Positions 27,616 through 52,756 of a stretch of 64,000 nucleotides of DNA are shown piece after piece. The notes under the pieces were generated by a model. It saw only the letters and a program-made list of their open reading frames with translations. It did not search any database and was not told where the DNA came from. The position numbers and the translations under genes were made by a program. Every line of letters begins with the position of its first letter. The stretch's first letter is position 1. This DNA comes from Escherichia coli (GTDB lineage Bacteria > Pseudomonadota > Gammaproteobacteria > Enterobacterales > Enterobacteriaceae), in NCBI RefSeq assembly GCF_050920415.1, contig NZ_CP169309.1; one strand, given 5' to 3'.

Positions 27616-27918
27616 AACAATTTCCCTTCATTGAATGAATGGAGATTTACCCAAAAACATTTCGGGCGGGATCGAGTATACACAACTAAAGCATGCGAAT
27701 TACGGCGCGGAGAATTAGTGATGGGGTTTTAGGATAATTGGAATGAATATCAAATATAAGCTTCAGCTTATATATAAATAACACTAAAAATCATAAGCTT
27801 AAAATAAAAATAAAAGTAATTAATCTGCGTATTTTCCGAAATCAATCATGATTAAAAATCTATTTTAGGATTAACCTCACGGTATGATTTTCGTTAAATC
27901 ACAGACAAGGGGATTTAT

Positions 27919-27955
27919 CTGATAAAACAATGCCGACTTATAGTCGGCATTGTTA
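27919..27955 (-). terminator. Rho-independent terminator of pgi
   Basis: aacaatgccgac-ttat-agtcggcattgtt hairpin followed on the minus strand by a U-rich tract. Confidence 0.65.
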
Positions 27956-27969
27956 TTAAGGTTATTTAA

Positions 27970-29619
27970 TTAACCGCGCCACGCTTTATAGCGGTTAATC
28001 AGACCATTGGTCGAGCTATCGTGGCTGCTGATTTCTTTGTCATCTTTCAGCTCTGGCAGAATACGGTTCGCCAGCTGTTTACCCAGCTCCACGCCCCACT
28101 GGTCGAAGGTGAAGATGTTCAGGATCACGCCCTGAGTAAAGATTTTGTGCTCATACAGCGCAATCAACGCACCCAGGCTGAACGGAGTGATTTCGCGCAG
28201 CAGGATAGAGTTGGTTGGGCGGTTACCTTCGAACACTTTGAACGGTACCACGTAGTCAAGCGTTGCCGGATCTTTACCCTGATCGCGATATTCCTGCTCA
28301 ACCACTTCGCGGGATTTACCAAACGCCAGCGCTTCGGTCTGAGCGAAGAAGTTAGACAGCAGTTTCTGGTGATGATCAGAGAGCGGGTTATGGGTGATAG
28401 CCGGGGCGATGAAATCGCACGGCACCATCTTCGTACCCTGGTGGATCAGCTGGTAGAACGCGTGCTGACCGTTCGTGCCAGGTTCACCCCAGATAATCGG
28501 GCCAGTCTGGTAATCCACAACGTTACCGTTACGGTCTACATACTTACCGTTGGACTCCATATTGCCCTGCTGGAAGTACGCTGCGAAACGGTGCATATAC
28601 TGGTCGTACGGCAGAATCGCTTCAGTTTCCGCGCCAAAGAAATTGTTGTACCAGATGCCGATCAGCGCCAGCAGTACAGGCAGGTTTTTCTCTGCAGGTG
28701 TGGTGGAGAAATGCTTGTCCATCGCGTGTGCGCCGGAAAGCAGTTCAACGAAGTTATCAAAGCCGATGGAGAGAACAATCGACAAGCCAATCGCTGACCA
28801 TAAAGAGTAACGACCGCCGACCCAGTCCCAGAACTCGAACATGTTGGCGGTATCAATACCAAACTCACCAACGGCTTTGGCATTGGTTGAGAGCGCCGCA
28901 AAGTGTTTCGCAACGTGTTTCTCATCACCTGCCGCTTTCAGGAACCAGTCACGCGCGCTATGGGCGTTGGTCATGGTTTCCTGAGTGGTGAAGGTTTTAG
29001 ATGCTACCAGGAACAGCGTGGTTTCCGGGTTTACTTTTTTCAGCACTTCCGCGATGTGAGTTCCATCGACGTTAGAAACAAAGTGCATGTTCAGGTGATT
29101 TTTGTACGGACGCAGTGCTTCGGTCACCATGTACGGCCCGAGGTCAGAACCGCCGATCCCGATGTTCACTACGTCAGTGATTGCTTTGCCGGTATAGCCT
29201 TTCCACTCACCGGAAATAATCGCTTCCGAGAAGGTTTTCATCTTCTCCAGCACGGCGTTAACTTCCGGCATGACATCTTTGCCATCAACCAGAATCGGGG
29301 TATTGCTACGGTTACGCAACGCTACGTGCAGTACGGCGCGGTTTTCAGTGCGGTTGATCTTCTCGCCAGAGAACATCGACTTAATCGCACTCGCCAGATC
29401 GCACTCTTTCGCCAGATCCTGTAATTTCGCCAGCGTCTCTTCAGTGATGCGGTTTTTGGAGTAATCCACCAGCATCTGATCGTCGAAGGTTGCGGAGAAC
29501 TTAGAAAAACGATCGCCGTCTTTAGCAAAAAGATCGGCGATCGTAACGTCTTTCATTTCATCGAAGTGTTTCTGTAGTGCCTGCCAGGCCGCGGTCTGCG
29601 TTGGATTGATGTTTTTCAT
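27970..29619 (-). CDS. pgi: Glucose-6-phosphate isomerase Pgi, 549 aa
   Basis: [72 protein letters not shown]... is E. coli Pgi. Confidence 0.97.
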
Positions 29620-29861
29620 TAGCAATACTCTTCTGATTTTGAGAATTGTGACTTTGGAAGATTGTAGCGCCAGTCACAGAAAAATGTGATGGTTTTAGTG
29701 CCGTTAGCGTAATGTTGAGTGTAAACCCTTAGCGCGATGAAGCATTTATTAGTTGAACTACTGACCGCCAGGAGTGGATGAAAAATCCGCATGACCCCAT
29801 CGTTGACAACCGCCCCGCTCACCCTTTATTTATAAATGTACTACCTGCGCTAGCGCAGGCC

Positions 29862-30060
29862 AGAAGAGGCGCGTTGCCCAAGTAACGGTGTTGGAGGAGC
29901 CAGTCCTGTGATAACACCTGAGGGGGTGCATCGCCGAGGTGATTGAACGGCTGGCCACGTTCATCATCGGCTACAGGGGCTGAATCCCCTGGGTTGTCAC
30001 CAGAAGCGTTCGCAGTCGGGCGTTTCGCAAGTGGTGGAGCACTTCTGGGTGAAAATAGTA
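29862..30060 (+). promoter_or_regulatory. Lysine riboswitch (LYS element) in the lysC 5' leader
   Basis: Leader matches the known lysC riboswitch: AGAGGCGCGTTGCCCAAGTAACGGTGTTGGAGGAGCCAGTCCTGTGATAACACCTGAGGGGGTGCATCGCCGAGGTGATTGAACGGCTGG...; about 300-nt untranslated leader before lysC. Confidence 0.85.
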
Positions 30061-30143
30061 GCGAAGTATCGCTCTGCGCCCACCCGTCTTCCGCTCTTCC
30101 CTTGTGCCAAGGCTGAAAATGGATCCCCTGACACGAGGTAGTT

Positions 30144-31493
30144 ATGTCTGAAATTGTTGTCTCCAAATTTGGCGGTACCAGCGTAGCTGATTTTGACGCG
30201 ATGAACCGCAGCGCTGATATTGTCCTTTCTGATGCCAACGTACGTTTAGTTGTCCTCTCAGCTTCTGCTGGTATCACTAATCTGCTGGTCGCTTTAGCTG
30301 AAGGACTGGAACCTGGCGAGCGATTCGAAAAACTCGACGCAATCCGCAATATCCAGTTTGCCATTCTGGAACGTCTGCGTTACCCGAACGTTATTCGTGA
30401 AGAGATTGAACGTCTGCTGGAGAACATTACTGTTCTGGCAGAAGCGGCGGCGCTGGCAACGTCTCCGGCGCTGACAGATGAACTGGTCAGCCACGGCGAG
30501 CTGATGTCGACCCTGCTGTTTGTTGAGATCCTGCGCGAACGCGATATTCAGGCACAGTGGTTTGATGTACGTAAAGTGATGCGTACTAATGACCGATTTG
30601 GTCGTGCAGAGCCAGACGTAGCCGCGCTGGCGGAACTGACCGCGCTGCAGCTGCTCCCGCGCCTCAATGAAGGCTTAGTGATCACCCAAGGATTTATCGG
30701 CAGCGAAAGTAAAGGTCGTACAACGACGCTTGGCCGTGGAGGCAGCGATTATACGGCAGCCTTGCTGGCGGAGGCTTTACACGCTTCTCGTGTTGATATC
30801 TGGACCGATGTCCCAGGCATCTACACCACCGATCCACGCGTGGTCACCGCAGCAAAACGCATTGATGAAATCGCGTTTGCCGAAGCGGCAGAGATGGCAA
30901 CTTTTGGTGCAAAAGTACTGCATCCGGCAACGTTGCTACCCGCAGTACGCAGCGATATTCCGGTGTTTGTCGGCTCCAGTAAAGACCCACGCGCAGGTGG
31001 TACGCTGGTGTGCAATAAAACTGAAAATCCGCCGCTGTTCCGCGCCCTGGCGCTTCGTCGTAATCAGACTCTGCTCACTTTGCACAGCCTGAATATGCTG
31101 CATTCTCGCGGTTTCCTCGCGGAAGTTTTCGGCATTCTCGCGCGGCATAATATTTCGGTGGATCTCATCACCACCTCCGAAGTGAGCGTGGCGTTGACAC
31201 TTGATACCACCGGTTCCACCTCCACTGGCGATACATTGCTGACGCAATCCCTGCTGATGGAGCTGTCTGCACTATGCCGGGTAGAAGTGGAAGAAGGTCT
31301 GGCACTGGTCGCGTTAATTGGTAATGACCTGTCAAAAGCCTGCGGCGTTGGCAAAGAGGTATTTGGCGTACTGGAACCGTTTAACATCCGCATGATTTGC
31401 TACGGCGCATCCAGCCATAACCTGTGCTTCCTGGTGCCCGGCGAAGATGCCGAGCAGGTGGTGCAGAAGCTGCATTTTAATTTGTTTGAGTAA
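30144..31493 (+). CDS. lysC: Lysine-sensitive aspartokinase III, 449 aa
   Basis: MSEIVVSKFGGTSVADFDAMNRSADIVLSDANVRLVVLSASAGITNLLVALAEGLE... with C-terminal ACT domains. Confidence 0.97.
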   Translation: MSEIVVSKFGGTSVADFDAMNRSADIVLSDANVRLVVLSASAGITNLLVALAEGLEPGERFEKLDAIRNIQFAILERLRYPNVIREEIERLLENITVLAEAAALATSPALTDELVSHGELMSTLLFVEILRERDIQAQWFDVRKVMRTNDRFGRAEPDVAALAELTALQLLPRLNEGLVITQGFIGSESKGRTTTLGRGGSDYTAALLAEALHASRVDIWTDVPGIYTTDPRVVTAAKRIDEIAFAEAAEMATFGAKVLHPATLLPAVRSDIPVFVGSSKDPRAGGTLVCNKTENPPLFRALALRRNQTLLTLHSLNMLHSRGFLAEVFGILARHNISVDLITTSEVSVALTLDTTGSTSTGDTLLTQSLLMELSALCRVEVEEGLALVALIGNDLSKACGVGKEVFGVLEPFNIRMICYGASSHNLCFLVPGEDAEQVVQKLHFNLFE

Positions 31494-42204: not shown

Positions 42205-42382
42205 AATTGCCGGATAAGACGCGCAAATCGTCGCATCAGGCGTTGATTGCCGGATGCGGCGTGAACGTCTTATCCAGCCTACGGTCAGCAACGGTTGTAG
42301 GCCTAATAAGACGCGCAAGCGTCGCATCAGGCATCGTGCACCGATTGCCGGATGCGGCGTGAACGCGTTATCCGGCCTACAA
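42205..42382. repeat. Large REP/BIME cluster (aceA-aceK intergenic)
   Basis: At least four REP units (ttgccggataagacgcg..cgcatcaggc, ttgccggatgcggcgtgaacg.cttatcc.gcctac, tgtaggcctaataagacgcg..) in alternating orientation. Confidence 0.9.
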
Positions 42383-47658: not shown

Positions 47659-47778
47659 ATGCCTGGCAGTTCCCTACTCTCGCATGGGGAGACCCCACAC
47701 TACCATCGGCGCTACGGCGTTTCACTTCTGAGTTCGGCATGGGGTCAGGTGGGACCACCGCGCTAAGGCCGCCAGGCA
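47659..47778 (-). rRNA. rrfE: 5S ribosomal RNA
   Basis: Reverse complement matches the E. coli 5S rRNA essentially over its full length (TGCCTGGCGGC...GGGAACTGCCAGGCAT). Confidence 0.97.
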
Positions 47779-47871
47779 AATTCTGTTTCATCAGACCGCT
47801 TCTGCGTTCTGATTTAATCTGTATCAGGCTGAAAATCTTCTCTCAATCCGCCAAAACATCTTCGGCGTTGT

Positions 47872-50774
<2,903 letters not shown>

Positions 50775-50968
50775 TCACAACCCGAAAATGTTTCTTTCGA
50801 TTCATCATCGTGTTGCGAAAATTTGAGAGACTCACGAACAACTTTCGTTGTTCAGTGTTTCAATTTTCAGCTTGATCCAGATTTTTAAAGAGCAAATATC
50901 TTAAACATGACTCGTAAGTCATCTTTAACGATATCAAGGTCGGCGACTTTCACTCACAAACCAGCAAG

Positions 50969-51044
50969 TGGCGTCCCCTAGGGGATTCGAACCCCTGTTA
51001 CCGCCGTGAAAGGGCGGTGTCCTGGGCCTCTAGACGAAGGGGAC
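50969..51044 (-). tRNA. gltV: tRNA-Glu (UUC) in the 16S-23S spacer
   Basis: Reverse complement GTCCCCTTCGTCTAGAGGCCCAGGACACCGCCCTTTCACGGCGGTAACAGGGGTTCGAATCCCCTAGGGGACGCCA. Confidence 0.95.
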
Positions 51045-51215
51045 ACGAAAATTGCTTATCACGCGCTGCGTGATATTTTCGTGTAGGGTGAGCTTTCATT
51101 AACAGAAAGCGAACGGCCTTATTCTCTTCAGCCTCACTCCCAACGCGTAAACGCCTTGCTATTCACTTTTCATCAGACAATCTGTGTGAGCACTGCAAAG
51201 AACAGTTCTTTAAGG

Positions 51216-52756
<1,541 letters not shown>

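What the first reader, a model, noticed from the sequence alone, without database searches (positions are those of the whole stretch)
29862..30060. Lysine riboswitch in the pgi-lysC divergent region
The roughly 300-nt lysC leader contains the conserved LYS-element sequence. It is the only cis-regulatory RNA element I can recognise with confidence in the window and should be annotated separately from the CDS.
Basis: established knowledge. Interest (0 to 1): 0.25.

Follow-up and report, generated by a model that had tools for sequence, protein, structure and literature searches.

The report
E. coli lysC lysine riboswitch, confirmed

Summary
Confirmed and already known. A covariance-model scan gives one full-length Rfam Lysine (RF00168) hit at window 29856-30052 (+), 99.5 bits against a gathering score of 30, E = 9.6e-27. 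RefSeq annotates a 'riboswitch' over the same bases in a 100%-identical E. coli chromosome. The element lies between divergent pgi (27970-29619, -) and lysC (30144-31493, +), and the region is present in 5425 of 5426 complete E. coli genomes. All five helices, the conserved junction sequences and the L2-L3 kissing loops are present.

Downstream there is no intrinsic terminator. Instead there is a long anti-P1 stem (about 30027-30061 with 30074-30105), a C-rich tract with a tandem UCUUCC, and a CCUUGUG/CACGAGG helix that can cover the Shine-Dalgarno sequence. This matches the published mechanism: lysine binding represses translation initiation and exposes RNase E and Rho entry sites.

Across 49 enterobacterial leaders both alternative helices keep 97-98% pairing potential, but statistical covariation is not significant.

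The only thing the papers I could read do not mention is a structurally conserved small hairpin directly 5' of P1 (29844-29859). Interest is low.

The parts
27970..29619 (-). pgi (glucose-6-phosphate isomerase), the divergent upstream neighbour
   Evidence: NCBIfam NF001211 equivalog, 909.5 bits. RefSeq annotation in the identical genome.
29803..29837 (+). Probable lysC promoter: TTGACA at 29803-29808 and an AT-rich -10 region (TTTATTTATAAAT) at 29825-29837
   Evidence: Read directly from the sequence. Its position fits a +1 at G29838. The simple consensus scan did not call it. Inferred, not demonstrated here.
29838..29838 (+). Inferred transcription start (+1 = G), giving a 306-nt 5' UTR
   Evidence: With this anchor, published G309 is the G of the AUG (30146), published Site1 (250-253) is UCUU at 30087-30090, and the published C-rich region at about 240 coincides with the 50% C / 17% G peak at +231 to +270. 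Inference from numbering.
29844..29859 (+). Small 5' hairpin directly abutting P1 (CCUGCG / CGCAGG, loop CUAG). Outside the Rfam model's paired region.
   Evidence: Present in the MFE fold. A hairpin ends 0 nt before P1 in 24 of 33 distinct enterobacterial leaders, with 30 different sequences. Cognate strands give 6.29 contiguous pairs against 4.71 for non-cognate; 0 of 5000 permutations reach the observed value.
29856..30052 (+). Lysine riboswitch aptamer (Rfam RF00168 match)
   Evidence: 99.5 bits, E = 9.6e-27, full model. RefSeq 'riboswitch' feature over the same bases. 47 of 53 model pairs are canonical.
29860..29866 (+). P1 5' strand (CCAGAAG), pairs with 30042-30048 (CUUCUGG)
   Evidence: CM alignment and constrained fold.
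29871..29934 (+). P2 arm: P2 29871-29879 with 29926-29934; P2b 29886-29893 with 29912-29919; L2 loop 29894-29911
   Evidence: CM alignment mapped to window coordinates.
29899..29903 (+). L2 kissing segment GCCAG, complementary to L3 CUGGC at 29951-29955
   Evidence: Cognate L2/L3 complementarity 4.42 against 3.77 for non-cognate. 17 distinct duplexes among 38 aptamers. 0 of 2000 permutations reach the observed value.
29938..29968 (+). P3 hairpin (29938-29949 with 29958-29968), with L3 carrying CUGGC at 29951-29955
29969..29995 (+). P4 hairpin (29969-29979 with 29986-29995)
   Evidence: all 10 mapped pairs are canonical.
29997..30037 (+). P5 (29997-30003 with 30031-30037), with an enlarged loop that has an 18-nt insertion relative to the Rfam consensus
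   Evidence: CM alignment. The insertion is larger still in L012 and L027.
30042..30048 (+). P1 3' strand (CUUCUGG): the switching sequence, shared between P1 and the anti-P1 stem
30027..30105 (+). Anti-P1 / antisequester stem of the ligand-free (ON) state. Consensus pairs: 30033-30040 with 30093-30099; 30047-30051 with 30081-30085; apical hairpin 30056-30061 with 30074-30078. In E. coli it can extend by GCAAG 30027-30031 with CUUGU 30101-30105.
   Evidence: MFE folds. Unguided RNAalifold consensus on 49 leaders. 98.4% of cells paired against 50-68% when the partner is slid, but only one compensatory change. Literature: the anti-P1 stem is 'particularly large' (PMC5234074).
30068..30107 (+). 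C-rich, G-poor tract (50% C, 17% G): the rut-like region, containing tandem UCUUCC at 30087-30092 (+250) and 30095-30100 (+258). The first coincides with published RNase E Site1.
   Evidence: Composition profile and motif positions. Function taken from PMC10946432, not tested here.
30100..30106 (+). [quoted passage not shown]
   Evidence: Pairing read from the sequence. 96.8% of cells paired in 49 leaders against 29-58% when slid, with no compensatory changes. Helix probability 0.43-0.80 when the aptamer 3' strands are locked, and 0.00 in the apo fold with ORF sequence.
30132..30138 (+). SD-side strand CACGAGG, containing the Shine-Dalgarno GAGG at 30135-30138
   Evidence: CCTGACACGAGG is nearly invariant in 49 leaders.
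30144..31493 (+). lysC CDS (lysine-sensitive aspartokinase 3). The G of its AUG (30146) corresponds to the published G309 pause and Rho-termination site.
   Evidence: NF006570 equivalog, 765.2 bits. RefSeq annotation. Numbering.

Best explanation
Window 29856-30052 (+) is the aptamer of the E. coli lysC lysine riboswitch. Together with the roughly 90-nt expression platform downstream (to the AUG at 30144), it feedback-represses aspartokinase III when lysine is abundant. Without lysine, the 3' strands of P5 and P1 (30027-30051) pair with 30081-30105 to form a long anti-P1 stem. That stem occupies the C-rich tract and the CCUUGUG anti-SD segment, so the Shine-Dalgarno GAGG (30135-30138) is free and lysC is translated. 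With lysine bound in the five-way junction, P1 (29860-29866 with 30042-30048) closes and the anti-P1 stem cannot form. CCUUGUG then pairs with CACGAGG and hides the SD. The now single-stranded C-rich UCUUCC region (30077-30100) becomes an entry site for RNase E and for Rho, which terminates at the pause at the start codon. Shown here: the family match, the helix anatomy, the kissing loops, the mutually exclusive pairings, their conservation, and the absence of an intrinsic terminator. Taken from the literature and not tested here: lysine binding, RNase E cleavage, Rho termination and the in vivo effects.
For: Family match: RF00168 at 99.5 bits, E = 9.6e-27, full length. An identical span is annotated 'riboswitch' in RefSeq. 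The region is present in 5425 of 5426 complete E. coli genomes, at 99% identity or more in 5004. The downstream gene is lysine-sensitive aspartokinase 3. 47 of 53 model pairs are canonical, and the junction sequences AGAGG, GCCGA, UGUCAC and GGAG..CU match the consensus. L2-L3 kissing complementarity co-varies across 38 aptamers, with 0 of 2000 permutations reaching the observed value. There is no terminator-like site on the + strand between the aptamer and the AUG. The anti-P1 stem is recovered by MFE folding and by unguided RNAalifold on 49 leaders, with 98.4% pairing against 50-68% when slid. The SD-sequestering helix shows 96.8% pairing against 29-58% when slid. Its probability goes from 0.00 (apo) to 0.43-0.80 (aptamer 3' strands locked). 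The C-rich peak and the UCUUCC at +250 match the published rut site and RNase E Site1. Published mechanism: PMC10946432, PMC5234074, PMC5584792. Two conformations are detected in living cells (PMC13271884).
Against: Nothing contradicts the identification. The limits concern mechanistic detail. Platform helices show almost no compensatory substitutions (0 pairs for OFF, 1 for ON) and the shuffle controls are not significant, so comparative support is conserved pairing potential, not covariation. Unconstrained folding of the whole leader does not reproduce the aptamer fold and is not clearly better than shuffles (z = -1.78). For a transcript ending at the pause site, the model predicts the sequester helix even in the apo state. 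In the comparative ON-state register, Site1 (30087-30090) lies in an internal loop rather than a duplex, while an alternative register (GGUGGAG with UUCCGCU) pairs it. I could not decide between them. The TSS is inferred from numbering only.
Confidence: 0.97

Rival explanations
1. It is a lysine riboswitch but acts like the Bacillus subtilis lysC L-box, by lysine-induced formation of an intrinsic (Rho-independent) terminator in the leader.
For: This is the commonest mode for the family in Firmicutes (PMC5584792). The aptamer itself is the same family.
Against: The terminator scan finds no stem plus U-tract on the + strand anywhere in 29600-30200. The only hit is on the - strand. The sequence after P1 is a C-rich tract and an SD-pairing helix. 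The literature shows translational, RNase E and Rho control in E. coli.
Confidence: 0.02
2. The covariance-model match is a chance resemblance or a decayed relic with no regulatory role. lysC is then controlled only at its promoter and by allosteric inhibition of the enzyme.
For: Promoter-level regulation of lysC also exists (Liao and Hseu 1998, as cited in PMC10946432).
Against: E = 9.6e-27 with a full-length match. The aptamer and platform are conserved across Enterobacterales whose LysC is only 71-90% identical. The kissing loops co-vary. Experimental lysine-dependent regulation has been published.
Confidence: 0.01
3. The leader works through a translated leader peptide (ribosome-mediated attenuation) rather than by direct metabolite sensing.
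For: Mechanical ORFs exist on the + strand within the leader: 57 aa starting at a TTG (29943-30116) and 36 aa starting at a GTG (30031-30141).
Against: Both use non-ATG starts inside aptamer helices. Homologous leaders differ by indels of 18-90 nt and other lengths that are not multiples of three, which would destroy any frame. RefSeq annotates no gene there. The region is fully explained by the aptamer model.
Confidence: 0.005

Closest known systems
E. coli K-12 lysC lysine riboswitch (Caron et al. 2012, as cited; Ghosh et al. 2024, PMC10946432)
   Same: It is the same element. The locus is 100% identical to several complete E. coli genomes and carries the same RefSeq riboswitch annotation. 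The published landmarks (Site1 250-253, C-rich region at about 240, pause G309, large anti-P1 stem) all map onto the window sequence with +1 at 29838.
   Different: No difference detected. I could not retrieve Caron 2012 to compare its drawn secondary structure base by base.
Rfam RF00168 Lysine riboswitch family (L-box / LYS element)
   Same: Five-helix junction P1-P5, conserved junction sequences, L2-L3 kissing loops, and a position upstream of a lysine biosynthesis gene.
   Different: The P5 loop has an 18-nt insertion and the 5' side of the P2 internal loop is 2 nt shorter than the consensus. These are ordinary within-family variation.
Bacillus subtilis lysC L-box riboswitch
   Same: Same aptamer family and the same regulated enzyme class (aspartokinase). 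Lysine gives an OFF switch.
   Different: The B. subtilis platform is an intrinsic terminator/antiterminator (established knowledge; PMC5584792 contrasts the two modes). Here there is no terminator. Instead there is an SD-sequestering helix plus RNase E and Rho entry sites.
E. coli thiC, thiM, btuB and ribB riboswitches (translational, with Rho and pausing)
   Same: An anti-P1 stem competes with P1, the SD is sequestered in the bound state, and RNA polymerase pauses near the start codon (PMC5234074).
   Different: Different ligands and aptamer families. For lysC the pause half-life is not ligand-dependent, and RNase E access is gated directly by the RNA structure.

Membership tests
Rfam RF00168 Lysine riboswitch | Covariance-model score at or above the curated gathering threshold (30 bits) | tested here: met
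   99.5 bits, E = 9.6e-27, model 1-182 of 182, no truncation. Reproduced in the whole-window scan.
Rfam RF00168 Lysine riboswitch | Five helices P1-P5 radiating from a central junction | tested here: met
   All helices mapped. 47 of 53 model pairs are canonical. P1, P3 and P4 have no non-canonical pair among the mapped positions.
Rfam RF00168 Lysine riboswitch | Conserved junction (ligand-pocket) sequences: AGAGG at J1/2, GCCGA at P2/J2-3, UGUCAC at J4/5-P5, GGAG..CU at P5/J5-1 | tested here: met
   Identical to the consensus in the CM alignment. AGAGGCGC, CGCCGA and TGTCAC are invariant in the eight genome-derived leaders, though these three motifs were the search pattern for seven of them.
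Rfam RF00168 Lysine riboswitch | L2-L3 loop-loop (kissing) tertiary interaction | tested here: met
   GCCAG 29899-29903 is complementary to CUGGC 29951-29955. Complementarity is maintained through 17 different duplexes in 38 aptamers, and cognate exceeds non-cognate with 0 of 2000 permutations reaching the observed value. The permutation test ignores phylogeny.
Rfam RF00168 Lysine riboswitch | Internal-loop motifs in P2 (turn / loop-E-like elements) | tested here: inconclusive
   The internal loop is present, but its 5' side is 2 nt shorter than the consensus and there are non-canonical U-U and C-U positions. Motif geometry cannot be judged from sequence.
Rfam RF00168 Lysine riboswitch | Located in the 5' leader of a lysine biosynthesis or transport gene, on the same strand | tested here: met
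   91 nt upstream of lysC, lysine-sensitive aspartokinase 3, same strand.
Rfam RF00168 Lysine riboswitch | Direct, specific binding of L-lysine | not testable with these tools
   Reported for this RNA in the literature: lysine-dependent effects in vitro in PMC10946432. Not tested here.
Translational / RNase E / Rho-controlled expression platform (E. coli lysC type) | No intrinsic terminator between the aptamer and the start codon | tested here: met
   No + strand terminator-like site in 29600-30200.
Translational / RNase E / Rho-controlled expression platform (E. coli lysC type) | Anti-P1 stem mutually exclusive with P1 | tested here: met
   It uses 30033-30051, which includes the P1 3' strand 30042-30048. 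98.4% pairing in 49 leaders. Covariation is not significant.
Translational / RNase E / Rho-controlled expression platform (E. coli lysC type) | Helix sequestering the Shine-Dalgarno sequence in the ligand-bound state | tested here: met
   CCUUGUG 30100-30106 pairs with CACGAGG 30132-30138. 96.8% pairing in 49 leaders. Predicted probability is 0.43-0.80 in the locked state and 0.00 in the apo state with ORF sequence. There are no compensatory changes, so support is pairing potential only.
Translational / RNase E / Rho-controlled expression platform (E. coli lysC type) | RNase E cleavage sites and a rut site exposed only in the bound state | tested here: inconclusive
   The sequence features are present: 50% C / 17% G tract and tandem UCUUCC at +250 and +258. 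Predicted accessibility rises from 0.28-0.33 to 0.71-0.84 in the short transcript, but the effect depends on register and transcript length. Cleavage and Rho loading are not testable here.

The most novel reading that the evidence does not exclude
The small hairpin at 29844-29859, which directly abuts P1 and is structurally conserved with divergent sequence across enterobacterial lysC leaders, is a functional extra module of this riboswitch that the accessible literature does not describe. It might be a 5'-terminal stem-loop that blocks 5'-end-dependent RNase E/RppH decay, so that the riboswitch-gated internal site is the only entry route. Or it might be a coaxial stack that tunes P1 stability and so the lysine threshold. 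A related possibility is that the species-specific hairpins in the 18-90-nt sequester loop tune folding kinetics.
Probability: 0.15. Interest if true: 0.3.

Novelty: already known. Interest (0 to 1): 0.08.

Why it matters
It matters only for correct annotation. The 306-nt lysC leader should carry a separate riboswitch feature at 29856-30052, as RefSeq already does. Its expression platform (to 30146) should not be mistaken for coding sequence or for the 181-aa antisense ORF that a mechanical ORF caller reports. The element is a textbook case of one RNA switch controlling translation, mRNA decay and Rho termination together, but nothing here adds to that beyond a modest comparative confirmation.

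Tried and rejected
1. Unconstrained MFE folding of the whole leader gave long-range pairings that do not reproduce the aptamer, with z = -1.78. Thermodynamic folding alone is not diagnostic here, so I relied on the CM alignment.

2. My first accessibility calculation used an off-by-one SD coordinate and gave a misleading result. It was redone with correct coordinates.

3. Covariation statistics for the two platform helices showed conserved pairing but no significant covariation. I do not claim covariation support.

4. I asked whether the variable insert between anti-SD and SD is always a stable hairpin. Many species have one, but the mean z is only -0.8 and E. coli has none, so this is kept as a side note only.

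5. MAFFT plus RNAalifold on the 5' hairpin found nothing because the divergent stems were misaligned. It was replaced by an alignment-free cognate versus non-cognate test.

6. Caron et al. 2012 and Rodionov et al. 2003 are not in the held library, so the published secondary structure could not be compared base by base.

7. Searches failed on search-term syntax. A corrected search found no mention of a 5' hairpin in PMC10946432.

8. The simple promoter scan did not call the lysC promoter. The promoter and TSS remain inferences.

Only 17 had a LysC-like ORF within 2.2 kb downstream, and 7 of those were Enterobacterales.

Full report
**Observation**

An Rfam scan of 29000-31000 at a permissive threshold returns exactly one match: RF00168 (Lysine) at 29856-30052 on the + strand. 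It scores 99.5 bits against a gathering score of 30, E = 9.6e-27, covers model positions 1-182 of 182 and is not truncated. The same hit appears in the whole-window scan.

**Context**

- The ORF at 30144-31493 (+) is lysine-sensitive aspartokinase 3 (NF006570, 765.2 bits).
- The ORF ending at 29619 (-) is glucose-6-phosphate isomerase (NF001211, 909.5 bits).
- The 601 bases around the element are 100% identical to several complete E. coli chromosomes. They occur in 5425 of 5426 complete genomes, at 99% identity or more in 5004.
- In one identical genome, RefSeq annotates a 'riboswitch' at locus 2757-2953, which is window 29856-30052, between pgi and lysC.

So the feature is already annotated in public records.

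**Aptamer anatomy**

Mapping the CM alignment to window coordinates gives the following helices:

| Helix | 5' strand | 3' strand |
|---|---|---|
| P1 | 29860-29866 | 30042-30048 |
| P2 | 29871-29879 | 29926-29934 |
| P2b | 29886-29893 | 29912-29919 |
| P3 | 29938-29949 | 29958-29968 |
| P4 | 29969-29979 | 29986-29995 |
| P5 | 29997-30003 | 30031-30037 |

47 of 53 model pairs are canonical. The junction sequences (AGAGG, GCCGA, UGUCAC, GGAG..CU) match the consensus. The P5 loop has an 18-nt insertion relative to the consensus.

L2 carries GCCAG (29899-29903) and L3 carries CUGGC (29951-29955). Across 38 distinct enterobacterial aptamers this loop-loop complementarity is kept through 17 different duplex sequences. 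Cognate pairs are more complementary than non-cognate ones (4.42 vs 3.77 bp), and 0 of 2000 permutations reach the observed value. That test ignores phylogeny. The hallmark kissing interaction of the class is therefore present.

**Expression platform**

There is no terminator-like site on the + strand between the aptamer and the AUG, so this is not a Bacillus-type terminator switch.

Folding recovers a long anti-P1 stem pairing 30027-30051 with 30081-30105, capped by a small hairpin. It uses the 3' strands of P5 and P1, so it cannot coexist with the closed aptamer.

Downstream, CCUUGUG (30100-30106) can pair with CACGAGG (30132-30138), which contains the SD GAGG (30135-30138).

With the aptamer 3' strands locked away (mimicking lysine binding), the predicted probability of that helix is 0.80 for a transcript ending at the start codon and 0.43 with 34 nt of ORF. 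In the apo fold with ORF sequence it is 0.00, and the unpaired probability of the SD rises from 0.29 to 0.52. The model is only qualitatively consistent: for the short transcript it predicts the sequester helix in the apo state as well.

**Match to the literature**

Ghosh et al. 2024 (PMC10946432) describe three layers of control. Lysine binding sequesters the SD. It exposes RNase E sites, with Site1 at nucleotides 250-253. [quoted passage not shown] In the ON state an anti-P1/antisequester stem protects this region.

Chauvier et al. 2017 (PMC5234074) place the lysC pause at 309 in the RBS/AUG region and call the predicted anti-P1 stem particularly large.

If +1 is G29838, three published landmarks fit at once:
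- G309 is the G of the AUG (30146).
- Site1 is UCUU (30087-30090), the start of a UCUUCC that recurs 8 nt later (30095-30100).
- The 30-nt windows with the highest C and lowest G (50% / 17%) are +231 to +270.

This agreement supports the anchor, but the TSS remains an inference. A TTGACA at 29803-29808 and an AT-rich stretch at 29825-29837 lie where a promoter would be.

**Comparative test**

Seventeen had a LysC-like ORF within 2.2 kb downstream, and seven of those were Enterobacterales. A second scan of metagenome contigs, using a platform motif that excludes the E. coli allele, gave 56 loci. All those usable had lysC downstream at 71-88% identity.

In 49 distinct platform sequences the blocks GGTGGRGCNCTTCTGGG, GCTCT, CCTTGTGCC and CCTGACACGAGG are nearly invariant. 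The spacer between the last two varies from 18 to 90 nt.

Unguided RNAalifold recovers the anti-P1 stem.
- The ON-state stem has 98.4% of cells paired, against 50-68% when the partner is slid.
- The OFF-state sequester helix has 96.8%, against 29-58%.
- There is one compensatory change in the first and none in the second, and the shuffle controls are not significant.

I therefore claim conserved pairing potential, not covariation. Strong sequence conservation is what one expects for segments that must satisfy two alternative pairings plus SD, RNase E and Rho recognition, but that explanation is an inference.

One unresolved detail concerns Site1. In the comparative register it sits in an internal loop of the anti-P1 stem, whereas an alternative E. 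coli register (GGUGGAG 30033-39 with UUCCGCU 30089-95) pairs it.

**Rivals**

- A terminator-type L-box is contradicted by the absence of a terminator.
- Chance resemblance is excluded by the score and by conservation.
- A leader peptide is excluded. The mechanical + strand ORFs in the leader use TTG or GTG starts inside aptamer helices, and homologous leaders differ by frame-breaking indels.

**Noticed beyond the finding**

A 6-bp hairpin (29844-29849 with 29854-29859) directly abuts P1.
- In 33 distinct leaders, 24 have a hairpin ending 0 nt before P1, with 30 different sequences.
- Cognate strands are more complementary than non-cognate ones (6.29 vs 4.71 contiguous pairs), and 0 of 5000 permutations reach the observed value.
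- Several pair types occur at homologous positions.

This hairpin lies outside the paired part of the Rfam model, and it is not mentioned in PMC10946432. Whether Caron 2012 shows it I could not check.

**Verdict**

The finding is real, correctly interpreted and already known. It is annotated in RefSeq and mechanistically characterised. Interest is low.

Noticed in passing
window 29844-29859 (+): Small hairpin (CCUGCG/CGCAGG) directly abutting P1, at about +7 to +22 of the transcript. It is structurally conserved with divergent sequence in enterobacterial lysC leaders: 24 of 33 abut P1, there are 30 distinct sequences, and cognate complementarity exceeds non-cognate with 0 of 5000 permutations reaching the observed value. 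It is not in the paired part of the Rfam model and is not mentioned in the papers I could read. It may be a 5'-end protective stem-loop or a coaxial stack on P1.
   Followed up: partly
window 30107-30131 (+), and the homologous spacers in L027, L074, L087, L089, L122-L176: The spacer between the anti-SD and SD strands varies from 18 to 90 nt between species and usually holds a species-specific hairpin just before CCCUGACACGAGG. E. coli has a short, unstructured 25-nt version. Fold z-scores are modest (mean -0.8).
   Followed up: partly
window 30087-30100 (+): Tandem UCUUCC repeats 8 nt apart (+250 and +258). This allows two alternative registers of the anti-P1 stem. Only the second repeat (GCUCUUCC) is conserved in other Enterobacterales.
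   Followed up: partly
window 30004-30030 (+); L012 and L027: The P5 loop has an 18-nt insertion relative to the Rfam consensus, predicted to form its own hairpin. Two other enterobacterial leaders have insertions tens of nucleotides longer at the same place.
   Followed up: no
window 27812-27961 (+): Rfam hit to the enterobacterial sRNA family STnc430 (72.6 bits, gathering score 47), ending 9 nt before the 3' end of pgi and on the opposite strand, in the yjbE-pgi intergenic region.
   Followed up: no
window 47661-52756 (-): A complete rRNA operon: 16S at 51216-52756, a tRNA at 50972-51044, a StyR-44 family hit at 50782-50890 just upstream of the 23S, 23S at 47872-50774, and 5S at 47661-47776.
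   Followed up: no
window 15903-15973 (-) and 42300-42377 (-): Two hits to Rfam naRNA4 (nucleoid-associated ncRNA 4 / CssrE), at 76.9 and 80.6 bits.
   Followed up: no
window 29819-30364 (-): A 181-aa ATG ORF runs antisense across the whole lysC leader and the start of lysC. RefSeq annotates no gene there. It is probably a by-product of the 60% G+C structured leader and would be a false positive for an ORF caller.
   Followed up: partly
search result for window 29600-30200: Among 5426 complete E. coli genomes, one lacks the pgi-lysC intergenic region altogether. One genome has a second copy, and that copy is on a plasmid.
   Followed up: no
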